Shown piece after piece: positions 5,466 through 57,770 of a stretch of 64,000 nt of DNA. The stretch lies in NCBI RefSeq assembly GCF_009914755.1, contig NC_060940.1; one strand, 5' to 3'. The stretch's first letter is position 1; every line of letters starts with the position of its first letter. The DNA comes from the human T2T-CHM13v2.0 reference genome, Homo sapiens. Both the position numbers and the translations under genes were made by a program. The notes beneath the pieces were generated by a model. That model saw nothing but the letters and a program-made list of their open reading frames with translations, was not told where the DNA came from and made no database searches.

Positions 5466-6830
5466 ACCACAGGTATGTATGTCACATGCCTGCATACGTC
5501 ACATGTATGTGTATCTCACACGCCTGCATACACCACAGGTATGTATGTCACACGCCTGCATATGTCACATGTATGTGTCTCACACGCCTGCATAAGTCAC
5601 ATGCATGTGTGTCTCACGCCTGCATACACCACAGGTATGTATGTCTCACGCCTGCATATGTCACATGTATGTATCTCACACGCCTGCATATGTCACATGT
5701 ATGTGTATCTCACATGCCTGCATATGTCACATCTATGTGTATTTCACACGCCTGCATACACCACAGGTATGTATGTCTCACGCCTGCATGTCACATGTAT
5801 GTGTGTCTCACACGCCTGCATAAGTCACATGCATGTGTCTCACACGCCTGCATACACCACAGGTATGTAAGTCACACGCCTGCATGTCACATGTGTGTCT
5901 CACATGCCTACATGTGTCACATGTATGTGTATCTCACACGCCTGCATACACCACAGGGATGTATGTCTCACGCCTGCATATGTCACATGTATGTGTATCT
6001 CACATGCCTGCATGTCACATGTATGTGTCTCACACGCCTGCATACACCACAGGTATGTATGTCTCACGCCTGCATATGTCACATGTATGTGTATCTCACA
6101 CGCCTGCATGTCACACGTATATGTCACACGCCTGCATATGTCACATGTATGTGTATCACACACCTGCATACACCACAGGTATGTATGTCACGCCTGCATA
6201 TGTCACATGTATGTGTGTCTCACACGCCTGCATAAGTCACATGTATGTGTCTCACGCCTGCATACACCACAGGTATGTATGTCTCACGCCTGCATGTCAC
6301 ATGTATGTGTATCTCACACGCCTGCATATGTCACATGTATGTGTATCTCACACGCCTGCATATGTCACATGTATGTGTATCTCACACGCCTGCATACACC
6401 ACAGGTATGTATGTCTCACGCCTGCATATGTTACATGTATGTGTATCTCACACGCCTGCATACACCACAGGTATGTATGTCTCACACACGCCTGCATATA
6501 TCACATGTATATGTGTCACACATGCCTGCATACACCACATGTATGTCACACACATCTGCATATATCACTTGTATGTGTCTCACACACCTGCATACACATA
6601 TATGCCTCACACGCCTGCATCTATCATGTGTGTGTCTCACACACCTGCATATATCACATGTATGTGTCTCACAGCTGCATACACCACAGGTATGTGTCTC
6701 ACACACGCCTGCATATATCACATGTATGTGTATCTCACACGCCTGCATATGTCACATGTATGTGTATCTCACACGCCTGCATATATCACATGTATGTGTG
6801 TGTCACACACACACCTGCATACATACAGGC
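5466..6830. repeat. About 1.35-kb CA/TG-rich minisatellite (30-34-bp units of two types)
   Basis: Alternating cacgcctgcatacaccacaggtatgtatgtct and cacgcctgcatatgtcacatgtatgtgtatct units. Confidence 0.95.
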
Positions 6831-13747: not shown

Positions 13748-14868
13748 GACAGAGACACCCACGCAGCGGGGGAGAGGACAGACGTCCGGAACTGGGTAGA
13801 GATGGGCCGTGGGTGGGATCTGCTGGGGACACAGACCCACGCAGCAGGGGAGAGGACAGACGTCCGGAACTGGGTAGAGATGGGCCGTGGGTGGGATTTG
13901 CTGGGGACAGAGACCTATGCAGTGGAGGAGAGGACAGACGTCCGGAACTGGGTAGAGATGGGCCGTGGGTGGGATCTGCTGGGGACACAGACCCACGCAG
14001 CAGGGGAGAGGACAGACGTCCGGAACTGGGTAGAGACGGGCCTGCCGTGGGTGGGATCTGCTGGGGACACAGACCCACGCAGCAGGGGAGAGGACAGACG
14101 TCCGGAACTGGGTAGAGACGGGCCTGCCGTGGGTGGGATCTGCTGGGGACACAGACCCACGCAGCAGGGGAGAGGACAGACGTCCGGAACTGGGTAGAGA
14201 TGGGCCGTGGGTGGGATTTGCTGGGGACAGAGACCTATGCAGTGGAGGAGAGGACAGACGTCCGGAACTGGGTAGAGATGGGCCTGCCGTGGGTGCGATC
14301 TGCTGGGGACACAGACCCACGCAGCAGGGGAGAGGACAGACGTCCGGAACTGGGTAGAGATGGGCCGTGGGTGGGATCTGCTGGGGACACAGACCCACGC
14401 AGCAGGGGAGAGGACAGACGTCCGGAACTGGGTAGAGACGGGCCTGCCGTGGGTGGGATCTGCTGGGGACACAGACCCACGCAGCAGGGAAGAGGACAGA
14501 CGTCTGGAACTGGGTAGAGATGGGCCTGCCGTGGGTGCGATCTGCTGGGGACACAGACCCACGCAGCAGGGGAGAGGACAGACGTCCGGAACTGGGTAGA
14601 GATGGGCCGTGGGTGGGATCTGCTGGGGACACAGACCCACGCAGCAGGGGAGAGGACAGACGTCCGGAACTGGGTAGAGACGGGCCTGCCGTGGGTGGGA
14701 TCTGCTGGGGACACAGACCCACGCAGCAGGGAAGAGGACAGACGTCCGGAACTGGGTAGAGATGGGCCGTGGGTGGGATTTGCTGGGGACACAGACCCAC
14801 GCAGCGGGGGAGAGGACAGATGTCTGGAACTGGGTAGAGATGGGCCTGCCATGGGTGGGATCTGCTGG
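13748..14868. repeat. VNTR, 14 copies of 78/82-bp units
   Basis: gacgtccggaac anchor at 13781, 13859, 13937, 14015, 14097, 14179, 14257, 14339, 14417, 14499, 14581, 14659, 14741, 14819. Confidence 0.97.
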
Positions 14869-15771
14869 GGAGGGGAGCGTTCGCATGGTGTGGGGGGCTG
14901 GACAGCCACTCTCTCCGGGACCACAGCTTTCTGGGCTGGGGCAGGACAAGGCCACTCATGCCCCACTTGCCCTTCTGAGGTTCAGCCAAATGAGGCTCCC
15001 ACCCCCATGACTCACAAGGCAGCTGGGAGCTCCGGCACTACCCGTGGGGATGGTCAGGACTCTAGGGGCCTTGGGGGGTGTGGGCCACTCCACCGTCAGC
15101 CCCAGCCCCATCCCCAGCCACAGCCTGTCTTTGGAGGGTGCTGACTGGGGGCCATTGCAGCTTATGGATCCCTGTGAAAGCCTGAACATCGGGAGCAGCC
15201 TGGTGACCTCTGCTCTCTGGTTCCCCCAACAGTGCTGTCCCACGTCCCCACCCCTGTGGCCAGCTCCGCCCACTCAGCCTCAGCCTTGCTGGGGCCTGGC
15301 CCGACCTCAGGAGTCCCTGCTGGCCTGGCCACCCTTGTGCCTTCGCCTCAGCCATCGGGGAGGCTCGGGTGGTCTCAGGGCCAACGCCAGGTGAGACCTC
15401 AGGTGAGCTGCCCCCCACCTTCCCAGTGCTCAGGGCCAGGGGAAGGGTGGTGGGCATGGACCACACTTGCAGCCCCCCCCTGGGGCATGCCTGGCCGCTG
15501 GCCTCCCTGATCCCTGCCCGGGTTGGGGCTCCAAGGGCAGGAAGTCAAGGCGTCCACGCTTGGTGACAGTGCTGGGCCGGCCTGGAGGGGGCAGGCATGT
15601 CCAGCATGGAGACGGAAGCAGGGAAGAGCCCATCGTCCCCTCCCAGCTCTGCCCTGAACACCCTCCAGCAATCGGAGGAGCCCGCTGCCCTTCCCCCACC
15701 CGCCTCCACTGGCATCCCTGGAGCCACACTGCCCCCTGCCGGGGCTGGCGGGTGTGATGGGCCACCAGGCC

Positions 15772-18800: not shown

Positions 18801-19429
18801 TGTTGAGCCACACCCACACCATCCCAGGGGGCGGGGTCTCGAAGGGGAGAACAGGTGCCACAGTCAACAGGAGGGAGGGCTTCTGGCCGAGGTGGCAAGG
18901 AGGCTCCAGGAGGCGGCAGCGTTGACCTTGGGTGTTGAGGGATGATGAGAAGGAGTTCTGTAGGAAGGAAGGTGCTCCAGGCAGGGGCCCTCGGGGAACA
19001 AGGGGATGCTGGAGGAGGTGCGTGGACTGGGGGAATTGGGGGTGTCCTACGAGCCACGCTGGTATCAGAGGCGTGTGAACCAGAGCAGTTCCATACTGAA
19101 TAAGAGCTGGGCAAAATGAGGTCGCGAGGAGGTGCGTGGAAGGCGGGCCTAGCGTTCAGTGGGATGCGGGGAGGCGCAGGAGACGCAGCCAGAGAGGCGA
19201 GGGGCCCAAGGAAGTGCTCAAGAGGTGTCCCCCGGCAGGGACTACAATGCAGATTCCCTGGAGCAGGGGCGAGCCGGGCCCAAGGAGCAGGAAATGAAGA
19301 AGCCAGGAATCCCAGCTGGTCCCTGACCCGGACGCACCCACCCTGCCTTCCCCACAGCCTGGCCTCTGGCTCTGCTCCCAACGCAGCAAGCCGGGGTATC
19401 TCCGACCTAGCCCTGGCCCTGCCCGCCGG

Positions 19430-19953
19430 AACCCCGCAAAAGCTATCACTCAGCCCTCGGCCCCGCCCCGGCCCCGCCCCGGCCCCACCCCGGCCCCACC
19501 CCGCACTCTCACAAGGTGTCACTCAGCCCTCGGCCCCGCCCCGCCCGCCCCATCCTCCTCTGGCTCCGCCCCACCAGCCTCGTGCGGTCACCGCCCCGCC
19601 GGCGCACCTGCGCTGTCACTCAGCCCTCGGCCCCGGCCCCGCCCCGCCTGCCCCACTCGCACACGGGCTATCACTCAGCCTGCGGCCCCGCCCTAGCTCG
19701 CCAGAGGCTCCGCCCCACCCGCCTGCCCACACGCTGTCACTCAGCCTTAGCCCTGCCCAGGCCGGCCCTCGGCCCGTCAGAGGCCTCCTTCGTGCTGTCA
19801 CTCAGCCCTTGCCCCGCCCCCTCCCCGCCCCCCTCACACGTGCTGTCTCTGTCTCTGGCCCTGGCCCGCCCCGCGCACTTGCGCTGTCACTCAGCCTGGA
19901 CGCGCTTCTTCGGGTCGCGGGTGCACTCCGGCCCGGCTCCCGCCTCGGCCCCG
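19430..19953 (+). promoter_or_regulatory. CDH15: CDH15 CpG-island promoter/5' UTR made of degenerate repeated modules (TGTCACTCAGCC x7, GC boxes, E-boxes)
   Basis: TCACTCAGCC at 19446, 19519, 19616, 19671, 19737, 19798, 19887; many CCCCGCCC; lies directly upstream of the ATG at 19954. Confidence 0.85.
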
Positions 19954-19995
19954 ATGGACGCCGCGTTCCTCCTCGTCCTCGGGCTGTTGGCCCAG
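19954..19995 (+). CDS. CDH15: CDH15 exon 1 (signal peptide MDAAFLLVLGLLAQ)
   Basis: ccgATGG start; donor CAG|GTAAGG. Confidence 0.97.
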
Positions 19996-22900
19996 GTAAG
20001 GCATCGGCACCTGCGGGGGTCCCCGCTGCCTCCCTCGACGCTGCGGGACAGTGTCTTCAACTGCAGCCGCACAGGTCTCCCCCAGAACCACTGGCCCTGG
20101 TCGCCTTTGGGGGCCTGTGAGCGGAGTGGCTCCGGGTGGGTCCCTGGGCTGGGGGCAGCACCCCAGGGGTTGTGGGGAGTGAGTGTAACCAAACACTCCA
20201 TCTGGTGGAATCACCCCCAGGACTGCAGAGTGCTGCTGGGGTCAGGGACCCCAGGCAGGGGCCACCCAGGTAGCCGTGCCCTCTCTTTGGAGGAACCGCT
20301 GCCGGGGTCTGGGGGTTGCCAGTCTTGAGTGGAGCAGAGAGAGGGGGGAGCGGCAGGAGTGCCCCTCTCTGGGGGGCTGGGGGCCAGGTTTCTATAGGGA
20401 CTCCCTGCGGTGGGCACAGGACCCCTGGCTAGTCTTGGGTGATGTCCAAACCCCCCACCCCAAGTTCCTGGCCAGCAGGGGTGGCTGCAGGCCCTGCCCC
20501 CAGGAACTCACCCTCACGGCTACTTCTCGATTGGGAGGGCCCAGCCCGAGCCAGGTCGCAACACACGGCCTTGCAGAGTGGCGTGTGGCAGCCCTGGGGG
20601 CTCTGTTCCTGGGCTTCACCTGGGACCCTGCCGCAGCTGCCTGGGGTGATCAGGCCTGGGGGCCCAGCCCCCAGAGGCTGCTGGACTCTGCCCCTAAAAA
20701 TCTTGTCTGGACTGCTGGCACCGTGGTCTCTCCAACGTGGGAGCAAGCCAGTGTGGAAGGAAGCCCAGGCCTCAGCCCCCCACACCCGACATGGGTACTG
20801 CCTAGCTGGAGCCACGTCTCCTCACACCCTAGGGGGACCTAGACATGGAGGATGTGGCCTCAGTGGCTTCAGCCCCCAGGGACTGGGCTGGGCTGGGGCA
20901 TGGCCGGCTGTGGTTGGGACGTCACTGGGTACAAGAGGGCAGCCTCTCTCTGGCCAATTCGAGAGAGAATGCACATAAAGGGCTTAGCGGTGCTCACAGT
21001 ATTCATTGCTCTTGTGGTCCTGGGGTGGTCAGGGAGTGCTGGACACAGTGAGTAAGGGAAGCCACTCCTTTCCCAGCCCCCACTGAAGGGGCTTCCTGAG
21101 TCCCCTCATTCCCACAGGCCTCCCAGCTCCAGCTGGCTCCAATTTCAGCCCCTGGCAGCTGACCAGGCGCCTGGCCAGCCAGACCCTCCAGCAGCTGCCC
21201 CTGAGGGCACCACGGCTCCTGCCACCCCCGACTCCCCCATCTGGAGACAGTGGTGGGGGGAGACAGTGGCTCAGCATGCGTGCTCACCCCCCGGCCCTCC
21301 ACCCCTCAGCCCTCTGCCGGGGAGCGCAGGCTGGGGGGCTCCATGCCTCCAGGGCCCTTCCCCACCTGCTCTGGGGACAGGGTTTCTTCCCTGGCACCCC
21401 AACCCAGGGCATGGTGGTGGGGAGGCTGGCGCCTGTGAAAACATTCCTCCAGACCTCTTCCTTTGGATTTGGGAGTGTCTGCCTTTCAAAAGGCCCCAGG
21501 GGGCTCTGTGGCAGGTGGGGAGGCAGGCAGGACCTCTCCCTCCTCAGAAGCCTTCCCTCTCACTGTCCCTTCTTTTCTCGCCCAGGGCTGGGGGACAATA
21601 ACCCCCTCCCCCGACAGCTGGAGGCTGGGGGAGGTGGTGGAGGTGGGGGCCAGATGGCAAGGGGACTATCGCCAAGGCTCAAATTCACTCCACTGTGAGG
21701 CAAAATATGTCAGTGTCAGGACCCTGCCTGCCCCTCCCCCAGCAGCTCAGCTTTCAGGACTGTGAGCTCTCCTGGGCAGCCTTGGGGTCCTGGGCCGCCT
21801 CCTGGTGAGCCCCCAGGCAGGCAGCGTGGGCCCATCAGGGCCTTCTACAAGTGAGGGGTTGCTCCCCTGCTCGGGCCACCTCTGATTGCTGAGCTCACTC
21901 AGCCCCACCCGGAGGGTGTCTTCAGAACTGGCCCCTCTCAGCCCTGCTGCACCTACACCATCCCTAGTTGCTGGTTCTACACCTGGGACCCCACCCCAGC
22001 TGGGAGGCGGCTGAGGTCTGGGGCAGCACACTTGACTCACAGAGAACCCCAGCCTGCTGGGAAGGTCCCCACTTCTGCATCTGGGTTTTGGGAGCCCCTT
22101 GGTCTCTGGGAGACAGTCAGCAGCACCCTGGGGGCCAGGCAGGGGCTCTTAGCTCGGGTGACTGTGACCAAGGCCAAGAAGGGAAGTGGCTCCCAGGCCA
22201 CTGTTCTTCCCACAGTGGAAGGACAGCCCCAGACACCGTGCTTTGGAGGGGACAGCTGCCTCCATGCCTCTTCTTCCACATCCCTTCTCTGAAGCCCGCA
22301 GCAGCTAGAGAGGGTGGGGCCCAGGGAAGATGCTCCAGCCGCTCTGGGCCAGGCCAACAGCTGGGGCCATTCCTGGCATGCCTGGCCATCCAGGAACGGG
22401 GTGGCCCCAGATTCCAGCCTGGGGGAGGGGTTGAAGCCTGAGAAGCTTGAGGGGCCTTCGCACTCTCTTCCCAGGCAAACCCACCCACACGCCACCAAGC
22501 GTGTTCCTAGAATCTCGTAGCACCCTTCCTTGGAAAACCGGGGGAGCAGGAGTGCAAGGTCGGCCCCAGAACCGCTCCTCGTTCCCGTCTCGCAGTGGTG
22601 TTCGTAAACCCCATTCCCACCTCGCAGTGGTGTTTGTAGACTGCAGCAAGCGCCCAGTGTGTGCAGAGCTTTCTTACACAGCAGCCCCTTGGGGTTGAGT
22701 GTCAGGCTAGGAGCAGACCTCAAGAGAGGCGTTAAGTCCCAGGAGCTTGGCTGCAGGGCGGTGGCCCCAGACGTCTCAAGGGCTTCGAGGTGGTTCCCTC
22801 CAGGCTCTTGGCTAAGGGTCCAGTCGAGGATGAGCTTGAGGGTGTCATTGGGGACCCCCTGTGGGGAAGCAGGTCACTAATGTCCATGGGTCTTGCCTGG

Positions 22901-25900
22901 CTTGGGTGGGGGACAGAGAGGAGTGGACGAGTGTCCACAAAATCCACCTCCCAGGGTGCTTGCGTCCCCTACCCCAGGTGCAGGGCTGTGGGCTGGCTGC
23001 GTTGATGTGGCTTTGTCCTGGGCACCGGATGTCCCGATCTCCCCAGGACGGCTCCCAGGCCCTCCCTCCACTGGCCACGTCTTCTGGGACGGGGATGGGG
23101 TGGGAGGACAAAGAGCCAGCTTTGAGAATGCCCCCGAGAGCCGGAAGTGGGCCGTGGCCAGCCTGCTCACCCACACCCACATTGGCCGTGATCTGGGCAA
23201 GTGAGCCCTGCCAAGGCTCTGTGGCTGCTGTGACCTGGTGAACTCAGGCTGTGGACAGGCCTGGGCCCAGGACTCCCAGCCTCTGGCTTGACCACACCCG
23301 GCCCAGCGTGACTGGAGGGTCTCCGGTGGAGGCAGCTGGAGGGTGGGTGAACAGGGCTGGCCCAGGTTTGGTGGCAGCTGGGCAGGGAGGGGATGGAAAC
23401 GTCTGCCCGGGTGGGGGTGGCCCCTCCACCTCAGCCGTGTGGGGTTCCTAGAGCCTGGGGTCTCCCTGCCCCATGCCCATGCCTAGCCCAAGGCCGGTGT
23501 GGCTCTGTGGCTGGATTTCCTTCAGAGCATGCGGTTCAGAGCCTAATCTGGGTCTCAGACCCCACGTGACTCCTGGCTCTGTCTGTGTGGCTTTGAGCAA
23601 ATGCCTCAGGCTCTCTGAACCTCACTGCCCAGAGCTGGGAGGTGAAGGGACCACCACAGGCTCCCGGGGGGTTGGGAGGACCAAAGGGGAGGGGGAGAGG
23701 GAGGTGCAAAGCTGCCCAGCCACGGCCGGAAACAGACCCTGTGCCCACCGAGGCTGATGAAGGCCCCATGCTGGGCAGGCAGGTTTCCACTTGGCAGGAG
23801 CTGCCCTGCCCTGGAAGTGGCTTGTGCTCTGTGGGTGCTGGCAGGCTCCGAGGCCAGGGCCGCCATCTGTCAGCTGGCAGAGAGCTTCCCCGGCAGGGTC
23901 CCCTGCCTGGGAGCCTGAGGAACCCCCACCCCATCCTCTCCCTGCTTCCTGCCAAAGCGTTTGCTACTCTCTGGACTCCCAGGAGGCCATGGAGGAGGGG
24001 ACTCAGGTCCTGCTGGCCGAGGACCAAGAACCCCAGGGAAGGTGGCCATGGTTTGGAGGCTGCTGCCGCTGCCTGTGGGGACCTCTGTGTGCTGGGCCAG
24101 CCCTGGGCACAGGACACAGTCAGAGCGAGAGGCCCCAGTGCCCCATCTCAGGGTGGGCAGATGGGCAGCCTGGGCCTTGCTCGTCCACACAGGGTAAGCG
24201 GCCGGTGGTGGAGGACAGAGGCCAAGCCTAATGGGGGTTCGGCCTGACAGGCTTCCTGGCCATGCCAACATCTCCTTCCCGGCCCCCGCCCACTCAGACT
24301 TACCAGCCCCCAACCGCTGCCTCCTCTCAAGGCCACATGCCCCCACGTCCCGGCCCCTGCCTAGACTGAAGTCTCGGCAAAGCCAGCAGGAGCAGGCGGC
24401 ACTGGAGGGTGAGGCATTGGCACGGGGCTGAGGAGAGCGGGCAGCCTCGGAGCCAGCAGGGGCGTGGTGGTCAGAGTAGCTGTCGACACCTGTGGTTTTG
24501 CAGGGGGAGGGGCGGCCCAGCTGGCCCAGCTCTGACCCCCCGGTTCTCGGTGCTCCATTTCATGGGGCCCCACCCTGCCTGGAGCAGGTGCCCCCTTCCA
24601 GCGGGGAGCTGGGTGAGGCCTCCCACGCAGGGTCCCGCTCACCAGGGCCGACTCGGTGCTCCCTCCGCTCGCACAATGTGGGGAGCTGTTCTAGGTGTTG
24701 GTGTGGCGTGGCCGGCACACCTCTGTAGTAGGCACAGGACCTGGTGCCGGCTGGGGAGTCCCGTGAGCCTCCCTAGACCCCAGCCCACCTGCTGTCCAGA
24801 TGAAGGAGCTCAGGAGCAGGCCGCGAAGACGGTGATGTGGAGATGGGGAAGGAGCTCAGGAGCAGGCCGCGAAGATGGTGATATTAAGATGGGGGCCCTG
24901 TCTGAAAGGGGAGCTGAGGAGTTTGTGTGTGGTGGGTGATGTTTGGGGCCTGCTCTGCTCCCAGACTCCCCATCGCCTGCCTGGGACCCCCAGCACCTCC
25001 CACCCGTCCCCCTGCCCGACATGGCAGCCCAGCAGCCTGAGGGCTTGTCCTGGGTGGGGGTGCCCCAGAGAGCATGGCCCGGGGTAGGGGGTCTCTGTCC
25101 CCTCCCAGCCGGGTGGTGCAGGAGGCTGCCCCGTCTCTGCGTTAGGGTCTGTTCCTTGGGGAGCTGCTGCCACCCCCACCACAACCCTGGCCACAGGGTC
25201 CTGGAAGCCTCCCACCCTGCCCACCCCAACTCAGCATCTTCCTCTGTAGCCCCTGTCACTGGGACGATGCAGACGCCACACCCTCACTACACGTGGTACC
25301 GGTGGGGGGCGGGAAGGGCCTCGGGTCTCTCACCCCCACAGCCCTGCAGTGGGGGGCTGGGAAGGTCGGGGTACCCTCGCCAAGGCTGATTGGGGCTGTG
25401 AGCGCTGGGCATGTGGGGCTGGGTGCTGGCCACACATGGGGCCTTAACCACAATGAGGTGAAAGGGGAACACAGCTCCTCACTTTTGCCAGGCACATTTC
25501 AAGGGCTCAGCAGCCCCATGTGGCCTGTGGGTCTTGGATGGTGAATATCTAGAACATTCTGGCAGCTAGGAGAGCGCTGTTGGGTGGGAGGGGGCCTCCA
25601 GGGAGGAGGGTCACCCGAGAGAAAGGCCGGGAGCCTGGCGACCCCCAGGACTAGGGAGGCACAGACAGCTCCTAGCCAGGCCCGGGGCACAGGGGACGGG
25701 GAGAGGGCACAGGGGATGGGAGAGGGCAGCCCTGTTTCCTCCTCCCTCATCTCCCTCTCCCCTGCCTCTCCCCCAGCCCTGGCCCCTGCTGCCCTCACCG
25801 AGTTCAGGCAGACTCTGTGCCCCAACGAGCTGCACCAGGCATCAGCCTGACCGGGGAGCTCGAGGGTGACCCCCATGTCCGTGCCGAGCCGAGTGGGGTC

Positions 25901-33779: not shown

Positions 33780-33960
33780 TCGGTGCTCCCGGAAGACCCC
33801 CCTTGAGTCAGCTCCTCTAGGAAGCCCTCCTGGTTACACTGTTACGTGGTCTTTGTCCATTTCTGTTCCTGCCACTAACCACGGTTCCCCAGGGCAGGGA
33901 CCCAAGCTCACTGGTGTGCTAGGTGCCCAGCACAGAGTAGGTGCTCTGTAAATGCTTACC
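33780..33960 (+). mobile_element. L2 3'-end fragment
   Basis: ggaagccctcct...agggcaggga...ctcactgg...gtgcccagcacagagtaggtgctctgtaaatg resembles the L2 tail GTGCCTGGCACATAGTAGGTGCTCAATAAAT. Confidence 0.6.
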
Positions 33961-35295
33961 CAGCGCACAGTAGGTGCTCTGTAAACACCCAGCGCACAGT
34001 GGTGCTCTGTAAACACTTATCCAGCACACAGTAGGTGCTCTGTAAACGCTTACCCAGCGCAGAGTAGGTGCTCTGTAAAGGCTTACCCAGCGCAGAGTAG
34101 GTGCTCTGTAAATGCTTACCCAGCGCACAGTAGGTGCTCTGTAAACACCCAGCGCACAGTGGTGCTCTGTAAACGCTTACCCAGCGCACAGTAGGTGCTC
34201 TGTAAAGGCTTACCCAGCGCACAGTAGGTGCTCTGTAAACGCTTACCCAGCACACAGTAGGTGCTCTGTAAACGCTTACCCAGCGCACAGTAGGTGCTCT
34301 GTGAACACCCAGCGCACAGTAGGTGCTCTGTAAACGCTCACCCAGTGCACAGTAGGTGCTCTGTAAACGCTCACCCAGCGCACAGTAGGTGCTCTGTAAA
34401 GGCTCACCCAGCGCACAGAAGGTGCTCTGTAAAGGCTCACCCAGCGCACAGTAGGTGCTCTGTAAACGCTCACCCAGCGCACAGTAGGTGCTCTGTAAAG
34501 GCTCACCCAGCGCACAGAAGGTGCTCTGTAAAGGCCCACCCAGCGCACAGTAGGTGCTCTGTAAACGCTTACCCAGCGCACAGTAGGTGCTCTGTAAACG
34601 CTTACCCAGCGCACAGTAGGTGCTCTGTGAACACCCAGCGCACAGTAGGTGCTCTGTAAACGCTCACCCAGCGCACAGTAGGTGCTCTGTAAACGCTCAC
34701 CCAGCGCACAGTAGGTGCTCTGTAAACGCTCACCCAGCGCACAGTAGGTGCTCTGTGAACACCCAGCGCACAGTAGGTGCTCTGTAAAAGCTCACCCAGC
34801 GCACAGAAGGTGCTCTGTAAACGCTTACCCAGAGCACAGTAGGTGCTCTGTAAACGCTTACCCAGCGCACAGAAGGTGCTCTGTAAACGCTTACCCAGCG
34901 CACAGAAGGTGCTCTGTAAACGCTTACCCAGCGCACAGTAGGTGCTCTGCAAACACCCAGCACACAGTAGGTGCTCTGTAAACGCTTACCCAGCACACAG
35001 TAGGTGCTCTGTAAACGCTTACCCAGCACACAGTAGGTGCTCTGTAAACGCTTACCCAGCGCACAGTAGGTGCTCTGTAAACGCTTACCCAGTGCACAGT
35101 AGGTGCTCTGTAAACGCTTACCCCGGGCACACAAGGTGCTCTGTAAACACTTACCCAGCACAGAATAGGTGCTCTGCAAACGCTTACCCAGTGCAGAGTA
35201 GGTGCTCTGTAAACGCTTACCCAGCGCACAGTAGGTGCTCTGTAAACGCTTACCCAGTGCACGGTAGGTGTTCTGTAAATGCTTATCCAGTGCCA
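33924..35295. repeat. CDH15 intron 5 VNTR, about 42 copies of 33-bp (and 28/29-bp) units
   Basis: acccagcgcacagtaggtgctctgtaaacgctt repeated. Confidence 0.97.
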
Positions 35296-36361: not shown

Positions 36362-37510
36362 CTGGCACACAGATGCCGGCAGACGCAGATGCCGACACAC
36401 ACAGATGCCCACACACAGATGCCGGCACACACAGATGCCCACACACAGATGCCGGCACACACACATGCCGGCACACACAGATGCCCACACACAGATGCCG
36501 GCACACACACATGCCGGCACACACAGATGCCCACACACAGATGCCGGCACACACAGATGCCGGCACACACAGATGCCCACACACAGATGCCGGCACACAC
36601 AGATGCCCACACACAGATGCCGGCACACACACATGCCGGCACACACAGATGCCCACACACAGATGCCCACGCACAGATGCCGGCACACACAGATGCCCAT
36701 GCACAGATGCCGGCACACACAGATGCCCACACACAGATGCCGGCACACACAGATGCCCACGCACAGATGGCGGCACACACAGATGCCGGCACACACAGAT
36801 GCCGGCACACACAGATGCCCACACACAGATGCCCACACACAGATGCCCACGCACAGGTGCCCACACACATGCTGGCACACAGATGCCCACGCACAGGTGC
36901 CCACACACAGATGCCCACGCACAGGTGCCCACACACAGATGCCAGCACACACAGATGCCCACACACACATGCCCACACACAGGTGCCCACACACAGATGC
37001 CCACACTGTCCACACACCGATGCTGGCACACATAGATGCCCACACACAGACACCCACACACAGATGCCCACACACAGGTGCCCACACACAGATGTTGGCA
37101 CACACAGGTGCCCACACACAGATGCCGGCACACACAGATGCCCACACACAGATGCCCACACACAGATGCCCACGCACAGGTGCCCACACAAAGATGCCGG
37201 CACACACAGATGCCCACACACAGATGCCCACACACAGATGCCGGCACACACAGATGCCCATACACAGATGCCCACGCACAGGTGCCCACACACAGATGCT
37301 GGCACACACAGATGCCCACACACATGCCCACACACAGATGCCGGCACACACAGATGCCCACACACAGATGCCAGCACACACAGATGCCCACACACAGATG
37401 CCGGCACACACACATGCCGGCACACACAGATGCCCACACACAGATGCCGGCACACACAGATGCTGGCGCACACAGATGCCCACACACAGATGCCCACACA
37501 CAGATGCCCA
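36362..37510. repeat. CDH15 intron 7 VNTR of 14/16-bp units (cacacagatgccca / cacacagatgccggca)
   Basis: Direct reading; starts about 15 nt after the exon 7 donor. Confidence 0.97.
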
Positions 37511-40605: not shown

Positions 40606-41490
40606 AACCAGCCACGCCGCTTCCTCCCCAGCTCCGCCTCCTCCCTAACCCCGCCCCCTCATTACCAGCCACGCCGCTTCCTCCCCAGCTCCGCCTCCTC
40701 CCTAACCCCGCCCCGTCATTACCAGCCACGCCGCTTCCTCCCCAGCTCCGCCTCCTCCCTAACCCCGCCCCCTCATTACCAGCCACGCCGCTTCCTCCCC
40801 AGCTCCGCCTCCTCCCTAACCCCGCCCCCTCATTACCAGCCACGCCGCTTCCTCCCCAGCTCCTCCTCCTCCCTAACCCCGCCCCGTCATTACCAGCCAC
40901 GCCGCTTCCTCCCCAGCTCCGCCTCCTCCCTAACCCCGCCCCCTCATTACCAGCCACGCCTCTTCCTCCCCAGCTCCTCCTCCTCCCTAACCCCGCCCCC
41001 TCATTACCAGCCTCGCCGCTTCCTCCCCAGCTCCTCCTCCTCCCTAACCCCGCCCCCTCAGTACCAGCCACGCCCCTTCCTCCCCAGCTCCTCCTCCTCC
41101 CTAACCCCGCCCCCTCAGTACCAGCCACGCCCCTTCCTCCCCAGTTCCACCTCCTCCGCAACACCACCCACTCATTACCAGCCACGCCGCTTCCACCCAA
41201 CCCGCCCCCTGCTCGCCAACCCCGCCCCCTCATTACTAGCCACGCCCCTTCCTCCCCAGCTCCGCCTCCTCCCTAACCCCGCCCCCTCATTACCAGCCAC
41301 GCCCCTTCTCCAGCTCCGCCTCCTCCCCAACACCACCCACTCATTACCAGCCACGCCGCTTCCACCCAACCCGCCCCCTGCTCGCAAACCCCGCCCCCTC
41401 GTTGCCAGCCACGCCTCTTCCCCAAGCCGGCCTCTCCTTACCAGCCAAGCTCCCTCCTCCACAACCCGGTCCCCTCCTCCCTAACCTCGC
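40606..41490. repeat. CDH15 intron 11 C-rich VNTR, 57-bp unit (about 9 clean copies plus a degenerate tail)
   Basis: taccagccacgccgcttcctccccagctccgcctcctccctaaccccgccccctcat at 40663, 40720, and onward. Confidence 0.95.
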
Positions 41491-57175: not shown

Positions 57176-57770
57176 ACCTCTTTAATTTGTGTGTCATTAA
57201 ATATGGGTAAATACAGCTGCCAGCAGCCTCCAAGTGGCTGCTCTGGGTGCCCTGCCTGTTGATTGGACTTGCTCTGCAAGGAGCAGCCACTCTCTGTACA
57301 TGGAGCAGCCACTCTCTGTGCATGGAGCAGCCACTCTCTGTACATGGAGCAGCCACTCTCTGTGCATGGAGCAGCCACTCTCTGTACATGGAGCAGCCAC
57401 TCTCTGTACATGGAGCAGCCACTCTCTGTGCATGGAGCAGCCACTCTCTGTGCATGGAGCAGCCACTCTCTGTGCATGGAGCAGCCACTCTCTGTGCATG
57501 GAGCAGCCACTCTCTGTGCATGGAGCAGCCACTCTCTGTGCATGGAGCAGCCACTCTCTGTGCATGGAGCAGCCACTCTCTGTGCATGGAGCAGCCACTC
57601 TCTGTGCATGGAGCAGCCACTCTCTGTGCATGGAGCAGCCACTCTCTGTGCATGGCTGCTCAGTAAAGCCGCCTCTTCCACCGCTGCCTCGCCCTCGCAT
57701 ACTTTCTGGGGTGAAGTCAAGGACCCTCCTGGGCCAAGCTGCAATTTTGGGGCTCAGCTGCCCTACATCA
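57176..57770 (+). mobile_element. ERV1-class LTR (MER61-like), 5' part lost, containing a 22-bp VNTR
   Basis: Ends ggggtgaagtcaaggaccctcctgggccaagc...ttttggggctcagctgccctacatCA, followed by a PBS-like TGGCGGCCACAAAGGGAT at 57774. Subfamily name is from memory. Confidence 0.7.
57281..57654. repeat. 22-bp VNTR x17 (gagcagccactctctgt(g/a)catg)
   Basis: Direct reading. Confidence 0.97.

What the first reader, a model, noticed from the sequence alone, without database searches (positions are those of the whole stretch)
19441..19900. CDH15 promoter is an amplified E-box + PBX/MEIS(PREP) + GC-box module
Seen: exact CTGTCACTCA at 19613, 19734, 19795, 19884 and one-mismatch copies at 19443, 19516, 19668, spaced about 55-100 bp apart, most followed by CCCCGCCC. 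Two copies carry an E-box 2 bp upstream (CACCTGcg at 19605, CACTTGcg at 19876). A decayed eighth unit has CACGTG at 19837. Established: TGAGTGACAG (reverse complement) fits the TGANTGACAG decamer bound by PBX-PREP/MEIS dimers, and PBX-MEIS is known to help recruit MyoD to some myogenic promoters. Inference: an ancient tandem amplification built a homotypic TALE/bHLH/SP composite array driving M-cadherin.
Basis: partly seen in the sequence, partly recalled or inferred. Interest (0 to 1): 0.72.

Follow-up and report, generated by a model that had tools for sequence, protein, structure and literature searches.

The report
Sevenfold PBX-MEIS site array, CDH15 promoter
The promoter of the human muscle adhesion gene CDH15 holds seven same-facing copies of one 14-base motif among GC boxes, likely made by local duplication and predicted to dock PBX-MEIS/PREP proteins that would help MyoD switch the gene on; Pbx1 dependence of this gene is already reported, so the likely new part is the sevenfold copying.

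Summary
Seven copies of a 14-bp core (19442-19896) are present; TCACTCAGCC occurs 7 times against a maximum of 2 in 2000 local shuffles. The core contains TGAGTGACAG, a published Pbx-Meis motif. Of 57 exact 14-mer matches in the genome only this locus has a cluster. Shared flanks point to tandem duplication. Cores are 95% alike while spacers are near background, unlike ordinary VNTRs, which suggests constraint.

Limits:
- The amplified unit is decamer + GC box; only 2 of 7 units keep an E-box.
- All three variant copies hit the TGACAG half-site.
- At least 23 other human loci have three or more decamers in a row.
- Binding and age were not testable; no other mammal was available.

Pbx1 control of M-cadherin is in print (review passage). 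From recall only, the mouse promoter study named one Pbx1/Meis1 element, which likely equals the copy at 19884. Verdict: a homotypic TALE-site cluster of a known kind. The sevenfold array was not found in 10 literature searches.

The parts
19442..19896 (+). Degenerate tandem array: seven 14-bp cores separated by GC-box-rich spacers, inside a CpG-island-like stretch over the CDH15 start
   Evidence: 19400-19953 has GC 0.76 and CpG o/e 0.82
19442..19455 (+). Unit 1 core; decamer variant with G>A in the MEIS/PREP half
19515..19528 (+). Unit 2 core; decamer variant with C>G at its first base
19605..19625 (+). Unit 3: E-box CACCTG (19605-19610), 2 bp, exact core (19612-19625)
19667..19680 (+). Unit 4 core; same G>A variant as unit 1
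19733..19746 (+). Unit 5 exact core; no exact GC box downstream
19794..19807 (+). Unit 6 exact core
19835..19856 (+). Probable decayed unit: E-box CACGTG (19837-19842) abutting a core with 5 of 14 mismatches
   Evidence: weak on the core alone
19876..19896 (+). Terminal unit in the 5' UTR: E-box CACTTG (19876-19881), 2 bp, exact core; no GC box downstream; inferred founder copy
   Evidence: downstream flank identity to the other six units 0.50-0.64
19461..19830 (+). Eight exact CCCCGCCC GC boxes (19461, 19472, 19534, 19539, 19637, 19686, 19812, 19823), all on one strand
19870..19995 (+). CDH15 exon 1 (annotated start 19870, ATG 19954)
   Evidence: hub annotation; ATG seen

Best explanation
The CDH15 promoter holds seven same-strand copies of a 14-bp core containing the TGAGTGACAG decamer among GC boxes, likely made by repeated local duplication of the copy beside the transcription start and predicted to be bound by PBX-MEIS/PREP dimers and SP/KLF factors that would prime the promoter for MyoD acting at the few retained E-boxes. 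Shown: the copies, their spacing, the shared flanks, the core-versus-spacer contrast and the uniqueness of this arrangement in the genome searches. From literature: the motif's identity, PBX-MEIS help for MyoD at MYOG and MYF6, and loss of M-cadherin on Pbx1 knockdown. Inferred: binding at these sites, selection on the cores, the founder copy, and the idea that lineage specificity comes from E-boxes (three in the array, many more in intron 1) while the array raises occupancy and adds redundancy.
For: 7 copies of TCACTCAGCC vs max 2 in 2000 local dinucleotide shuffles. 4 of 57 exact 14-mer genome matches lie here and the other 53 are singletons. Decamer-GC box-decamer gave 2 matches genome-wide, both here. 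A 21-nt E-box+decamer pattern gave 2 matches at up to 2 mismatches, units 3 and 8. In-register downstream flanks score 16.6 vs out-of-register null 10.0 +/- 1.7, 0 of 300 nulls as high. Core identity 0.95 vs 0.39-0.54 in ungapped flanks, background 0.36; three young decamer VNTRs examined are 0.71-1.0 throughout. TGAGTGACAG is named a Pbx-Meis motif enriched in ChIP-seq peaks in RD cells (PMC8983046 passages). DECA peaks co-occur with an Sp/Klf-type motif (PMC6023610 passages). Pbx1 knockdown lowers M-cadherin (review PMC11310070 passage citing Lin 2021). MyoD ChIP-seq sites lie in the 5' low-methylation region of human CDH15 (PMC10885033 passages).
Against: No binding or reporter data for these human sites was found. 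E-box present in only 2 of 7 units; the 2-bp spacing was 5 of the first 100 of 1342 genome matches, the rarest of eight spacings. All three variant copies alter TGACAG while the unexplained GCC tail is invariant. The constraint test is biased: units were picked by their cores and the simulation has no indels; at the decay level closest to the gapped flank identity, 16 of 1500 runs reached the observed core. Gapped flank identity (0.72-0.75) is close to the out-of-register null (0.71). At least 23 other loci carry three decamers in a row. No CCAAT box, the usual DECA partner, in 19300-19960. The annotation lists a silencer at 19294-19945.
Confidence: 0.62

Rival explanations
1. Only the start-proximal copy (19884) and its E-boxes matter; the six upstream copies are a by-product of duplication bias at a GC-rich promoter and add little.
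For: This window is full of unrelated VNTRs. Short insertions duplicate bound TF sites in the germline and build homotypic clusters (PMC8559717 passages). Many decamer-bearing VNTRs exist elsewhere. All three damaged decamers are among the upstream units.
Against: Cores stay 95% alike while spacers changed in length and sequence; uniform decay at matching ungapped identity gave 0 of 1500 such blocks (biased test). The insertions in that paper are 5-20 bp, shorter than these 55-97 bp units.
Confidence: 0.22
2. The array is real and bound, but it works mainly as a repressive or poising element in non-expressing cells, through PBX-PREP with corepressors or another TGACAG binder, with BHLHE40 at CACGTG; MyoD overrides it in muscle.
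For: RefSeq functional element 'silencer 19294-19945' covers the array (hub annotation). Bhlhe40 represses an M-cadherin promoter reporter (PMC6218633 passages). The promoter CpG island is described as constitutively unmethylated although expression is tissue-restricted. PBX alone is not sufficient at Myogenin.
Against: Pbx1 knockdown lowers M-cadherin, which fits activation. The basis and cell type of the silencer call were not seen. This rival is compatible with the main reading in other cell types.
Confidence: 0.1
3. The constrained word is TCACTCAGCC (or the whole 14-mer), read by a different factor such as a zinc-finger or bZIP protein, or acting as repeated initiator-like start sites; the TALE match is incidental.
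For: TCACTCAGCC is invariant in 7 of 7 while all variants fall in the TGACAG half. GTCACT fits an initiator consensus (recalled motif) in 5 of 7 cores.
Against: The variants are probably only two events (units 1 and 4 share one), so their position is weak evidence (about 0.18 by simple count, inference). The same initiator scan gives 16 hits in 660 bp, so it is not specific. Four copies match a published Pbx-Meis decamer exactly.
Confidence: 0.06

Closest known systems
Mouse M-cadherin (Cdh15) proximal promoter (Hsiao and Chen 2010, PMID 20334626; Lin et al. 2021, PMID 33527978)
   Same: Same gene; MRF-responsive proximal promoter (title in reference lists); Pbx1 knockdown lowers expression (review passage). 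Recalled, not seen: E-boxes at the start site, two GC boxes and one conserved downstream element predicted to bind Meis1/Pbx1, which would match 19876-19893.
   Different: Human has seven decamer copies and eight exact GC boxes. Neither paper was held, so whether they show the human array or extra mouse copies is unknown.
MYOG and MYF6 promoter PBX-MEIS / E-box elements
   Same: A Pbx-Meis motif next to an E-box raises MyoD/MyoG binding (PMC8983046 passages; PMC6411007 passages).
   Different: One or two such elements with noncanonical E-boxes; here seven motifs, canonical CANNTG at only two, GC-box spacers, no MEF2 or TATA match.
PBX-PREP DECA-motif sites (TGATTGACAG; PMC6023610)
   Same: [quoted passage not shown]
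   Different: G rather than T at position 4; no CCAAT/NF-Y box nearby; repeated in tandem.
Homotypic TF-site clusters built by tandem duplication (Gotea 2010 as cited in PMC8559717)
   Same: Common feature of human promoters; duplication of sites is a documented route.
   Different: Units here are 55-97 bp and old enough that Tandem Repeats Finder misses them; PBX and PKNOX are not mentioned in that paper's main text.

Membership tests
PBX-PREP/MEIS decamer site | Adjacent PBX and TGACAG half-sites forming the 10-bp motif | tested here: met
   4 of 7 copies read TGAGTGACAG on the minus strand, named a Pbx-Meis motif; 3 of 7 have one change in TGACAG
PBX-PREP/MEIS decamer site | Occupancy by PBX with PREP or MEIS in cells | not testable with these tools
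   No ChIP data; no paper found for these sites
PBX-PREP/MEIS decamer site | Nearby CCAAT (NF-Y) box, common but not obligatory | tested here: not met
   None in 19300-19960; association described
PBX-MEIS / MyoD composite element | E-box close to the PBX-MEIS motif | tested here: inconclusive
   2 of 7 units have CANNTG 2 bp away; this spacing was 5 of 100 listed genome matches; the paper giving selected spacings was not held
PBX-MEIS / MyoD composite element | MyoD recruitment depends on the PBX-MEIS site | not testable with these tools
   Indirect only: Pbx1 knockdown lowers M-cadherin; MyoD sites in the 5' region of human CDH15
Homotypic cluster by tandem duplication | More same-factor sites than chance in a short span | tested here: met
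   7 copies vs max 2 in 2000 shuffles
Homotypic cluster by tandem duplication | Shared sequence beyond the motif, in register | tested here: met
   Downstream flank p=0.003, upstream p=0.047; 21-nt unit 3/8 match unique in the genome; 19-nt 95% pair 19562/19706. Flanks contain GC boxes, so this is not fully independent of selection.
Ordinary VNTR / minisatellite | Regular period and uniform high identity along the unit | tested here: not met
   Not called by TRF; spacing 55-97; core 0.95 vs flanks 0.39-0.54, against 0.71-1.0 throughout in L008-L010
Ancient (pan-mammalian) conserved array | Multiple copies in orthologous promoters of other mammals | not testable with these tools
   G000 has no relatives in the collection (header)

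The most novel reading that the evidence does not exclude
A single conserved PBX-MEIS/E-box element at the CDH15 start was multiplied sevenfold after the split from rodents and kept by selection, giving a high-occupancy TALE platform that lets different bHLH factors (MyoD in myoblasts, a neural bHLH in cerebellar neurons) switch on the same promoter. This would explain the gene's very high myoblast-plus-cerebellum expression and its easy reprogramming by MyoD.
Probability: 0.15. Interest if true: 0.62.

Novelty: new member of a known kind. Interest (0 to 1): 0.36.

Why it matters
If the copies are functional, CDH15 is a natural copy-number series for one question: how many pre-bound PBX-MEIS/PREP sites does a promoter need for MyoD to open it, and do extra copies add strength or only redundancy? 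CDH15 is among the 'early' genes well reprogrammed by MyoD in human fibroblasts and is strongly specific to both myoblasts and cerebellum. It would also mean mouse reporter work may understate TALE input to the human gene. The factors and the mechanism are familiar, so the gain is a specific, testable case and not a new principle.

Tried and rejected
Transposon or paralogue origin: a DNA search of 19400-19950 against the genome gave 4 matches, the locus itself and three 47-53 nt GC-box runs without decamers; the tool warns that no match does not prove rarity.
Structured RNA: 0 Rfam matches in 19000-20300.
Ordinary VNTR: rejected.
Helical phasing: spacings modulo 10.5 were scattered (0.95, 0.24, 0.24, 0.29, 0.81, 0.48).
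Preferred 2-bp E-box spacing in bulk genome: not seen (counts for 0-7 bp: 19, 18, 5, 20, 8, 7, 12, 11 in the first 100 of 1342, all on contig 1, duplicated copies included). Bulk sequence is a weak test of bound sites.
General decamer + GC-box grammar: 15 matches vs 11 for the reversed control, no enrichment.
CCAAT, MEF2, TATA: none.
Primary papers on the mouse promoter and on PBX-MyoD spacing were not held.
A link between Meis1, cerebellar granule cells and Cdh15: 0 papers.
No supplements were opened; ChIP tables in supplements of the CDH15 epigenetics papers could bear on binding.

Full report
Observation. The sequence at 19400-19953 is 76% GC with CpG o/e 0.82. CTGTCACTCA occurs exactly four times in the 64-kb window, all here (shuffle mean 0.30, max 2). 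One-mismatch copies lie at 19443, 19516 and 19668. The shared core is 14 bp, and TCACTCAGCC is invariant in 7 of 7. In 2000 dinucleotide shuffles of the region no comparable 10-mer occurred more than twice. Elsewhere in the window, five or more copies of a 10-mer in 550 bp occurred only in arrays that TRF calls. TRF does not call this array. Spacings are 73, 97, 55, 66, 61, 89. Exact GC boxes follow 5 of 7 cores; E-boxes sit 2 bp before units 3 and 8. The CACGTG at 19837 abuts a core with 5 of 14 mismatches, which is background level; it is accepted as a probable decayed unit on flank alignment only.

Origin. Units share sequence beyond the motif. GCCCTCGGCCC follows three cores in register and a 19-nt pair at 19562/19706 is 95% identical. 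In-register downstream 25-mers score 16.6 against 10.0 +/- 1.7 for out-of-register pairs from the same region (0 of 300 nulls as high); upstream 13.0 against 9.9 +/- 1.6 (p 0.047). A 21-nt E-box-plus-decamer pattern matches twice in the genome at up to two mismatches, at units 3 and 8. Nine of 28 spacer pairs beat shuffles at p of about 0.02 or less, though these are GC-box-rich. This favours repeated, overlapping local duplications over seven independent origins (inference). Unit 8 lies in the annotated 5' UTR and its downstream flank is unlike the others (0.50-0.64), as expected of the founder or terminal copy (inference). No paralogue or source element was found and no Rfam family.

Constraint. 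Ungapped pair identity is 0.95 over the core and 0.39-0.54 in flanking blocks, background 0.36. Uniform-decay simulations reached the observed core in 0 of 1500 runs at each of three higher decay levels and 16 of 1500 at the lowest, which is closest to the gapped flank identity. The test is biased toward this result because units were chosen by their cores and indels were not modelled. As an empirical contrast I profiled 3 of the 23 other multi-decamer loci listed, plus L007: L008-L010 have regular periods and 0.71-1.0 identity in all blocks; L007 has three 65-bp units with downstream flanks 0.93-1.0 and upstream 0.47-0.70. CDH15 differs in having well-kept cores in decayed spacers. This is suggestive of selection, not proof.

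How unusual in the genome. Of 57 exact 14-mer matches, four are here and 53 are singletons. Decamer-GC box-decamer gave two matches, both here. But three decamers in a row is not rare: 164 matches, the first 100 falling in 24 loci including this one, against 66 for the reversed control. Decamer followed by GC box is not enriched (15 vs 11). The 2-bp E-box gap was 5 of the first 100 of 1342 matches. The tool notes that counts may be lower bounds.

What the motif is. Passages of PMC8983046 name TGAGTGACAG as a Pbx-Meis motif enriched in ChIP-seq peaks and show that Pbx1-Meis1 raises MyoD-E47 binding at MYOG and MYF6 elements. [quoted passage not shown] Passages of PMC6411007 and PMC8431614 describe PBX pre-bound at Myogenin, needed but not sufficient. 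Against a strict reading, all three variant copies alter the TGACAG half and the GCC tail is invariant without a TALE explanation; the variants are probably two events, so this is weak.

What is known for this gene. [quoted passage not shown] Bhlhe40 represses an M-cadherin reporter (PMC6218633 passages). The two primary papers were not held; I saw only their titles in reference lists. From recall, unverified, Lin 2021 describes several E-boxes, two GC boxes and one conserved downstream element predicted to bind Meis1/Pbx1 and needed for MyoD recruitment. The layout at 19876-19893 fits that. Human CDH15 is highly expressed in myoblasts and cerebellum, has MyoD ChIP sites in its 5' low-methylation region (PMC10885033 passages; PMC5330441 passages) and is an 'early', well-reprogrammed MyoD target (PMC5714206 passages). 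None of the passages read mentions the array. Ten searches found no description of it; subscription papers and supplements were not covered.

Mechanism. Best reading (0.62): duplication turned one PBX-MEIS/PREP site into seven; these, with SP/KLF sites, would keep the promoter TALE-marked and accessible, and MyoD or myogenin at the E-boxes near the start and in intron 1 (20 further CAGCTG/CAGGTG/CACCTG sites in 20600-24800) would supply muscle specificity. Binding, selection and function are inferred. Rivals: upstream copies are a by-product of duplication bias (0.22; PMC8559717 passages); the array mainly represses or poises the gene outside muscle (0.10; silencer annotation); another factor or initiator function explains the core (0.06).

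Novelty and score. Homotypic clusters made by duplication are a known feature of human promoters, and the TALE-MyoD link for this gene is reported. This is a new member of a known kind, notable for its copy number and core-versus-spacer contrast. 'Ancient' is unproven: spacers are near background identity, which suggests age, but GC-rich repeats can decay fast, and no orthologue could be examined. Interest 0.36; the bolder case (lineage-specific amplification serving both muscle and cerebellar expression) has probability about 0.15 and would merit 0.62.

Noticed in passing
L007:1150-1370 (G000:C10:124888149-124888370): Three to four 65-bp tandem units, each with a decamer followed by a GC box; a younger, independent parallel of the CDH15 unit outside a CpG island.
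   Followed up: partly
L008, L009, L010 (G000:C16:94538643, C12:131168794, C7:159779087) and C7:159.12 Mb, C3:198.86 and 199.19 Mb, C9:81.60 Mb: VNTRs whose units carry the PBX-PREP/MEIS decamer, up to 18 or more copies; possible strong TALE-binding arrays. L010 has CpG o/e 1.11.
   Followed up: partly
window 19411-19833, minus strand: Seven G-quadruplex-like G-run motifs on the template strand, from the GC boxes.
   Followed up: no
window 19396-19430: A possible further decayed unit upstream of unit 1, resembling unit 5's flank (family D5); not significant in the core scan.
   Followed up: partly
window 40607-41421: 57-bp GC-rich VNTR, 14 copies, in CDH15 intron 11 next to the exon 10-11 region described as a methylation-sensitive cryptic promoter.
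   Followed up: partly
window 13757-14871, 33926-35290, 36366-37510, 5468-6808, 57275-57655: Several other long VNTRs; the 160-bp-period array overlaps the annotated start of LINC02138 (hub annotation).
   Followed up: no
window 20600-24800: Twenty CAGCTG/CAGGTG/CACCTG E-boxes in CDH15 intron 1, three CAGCTG within 21130-21197; not tested against chance.
   Followed up: no
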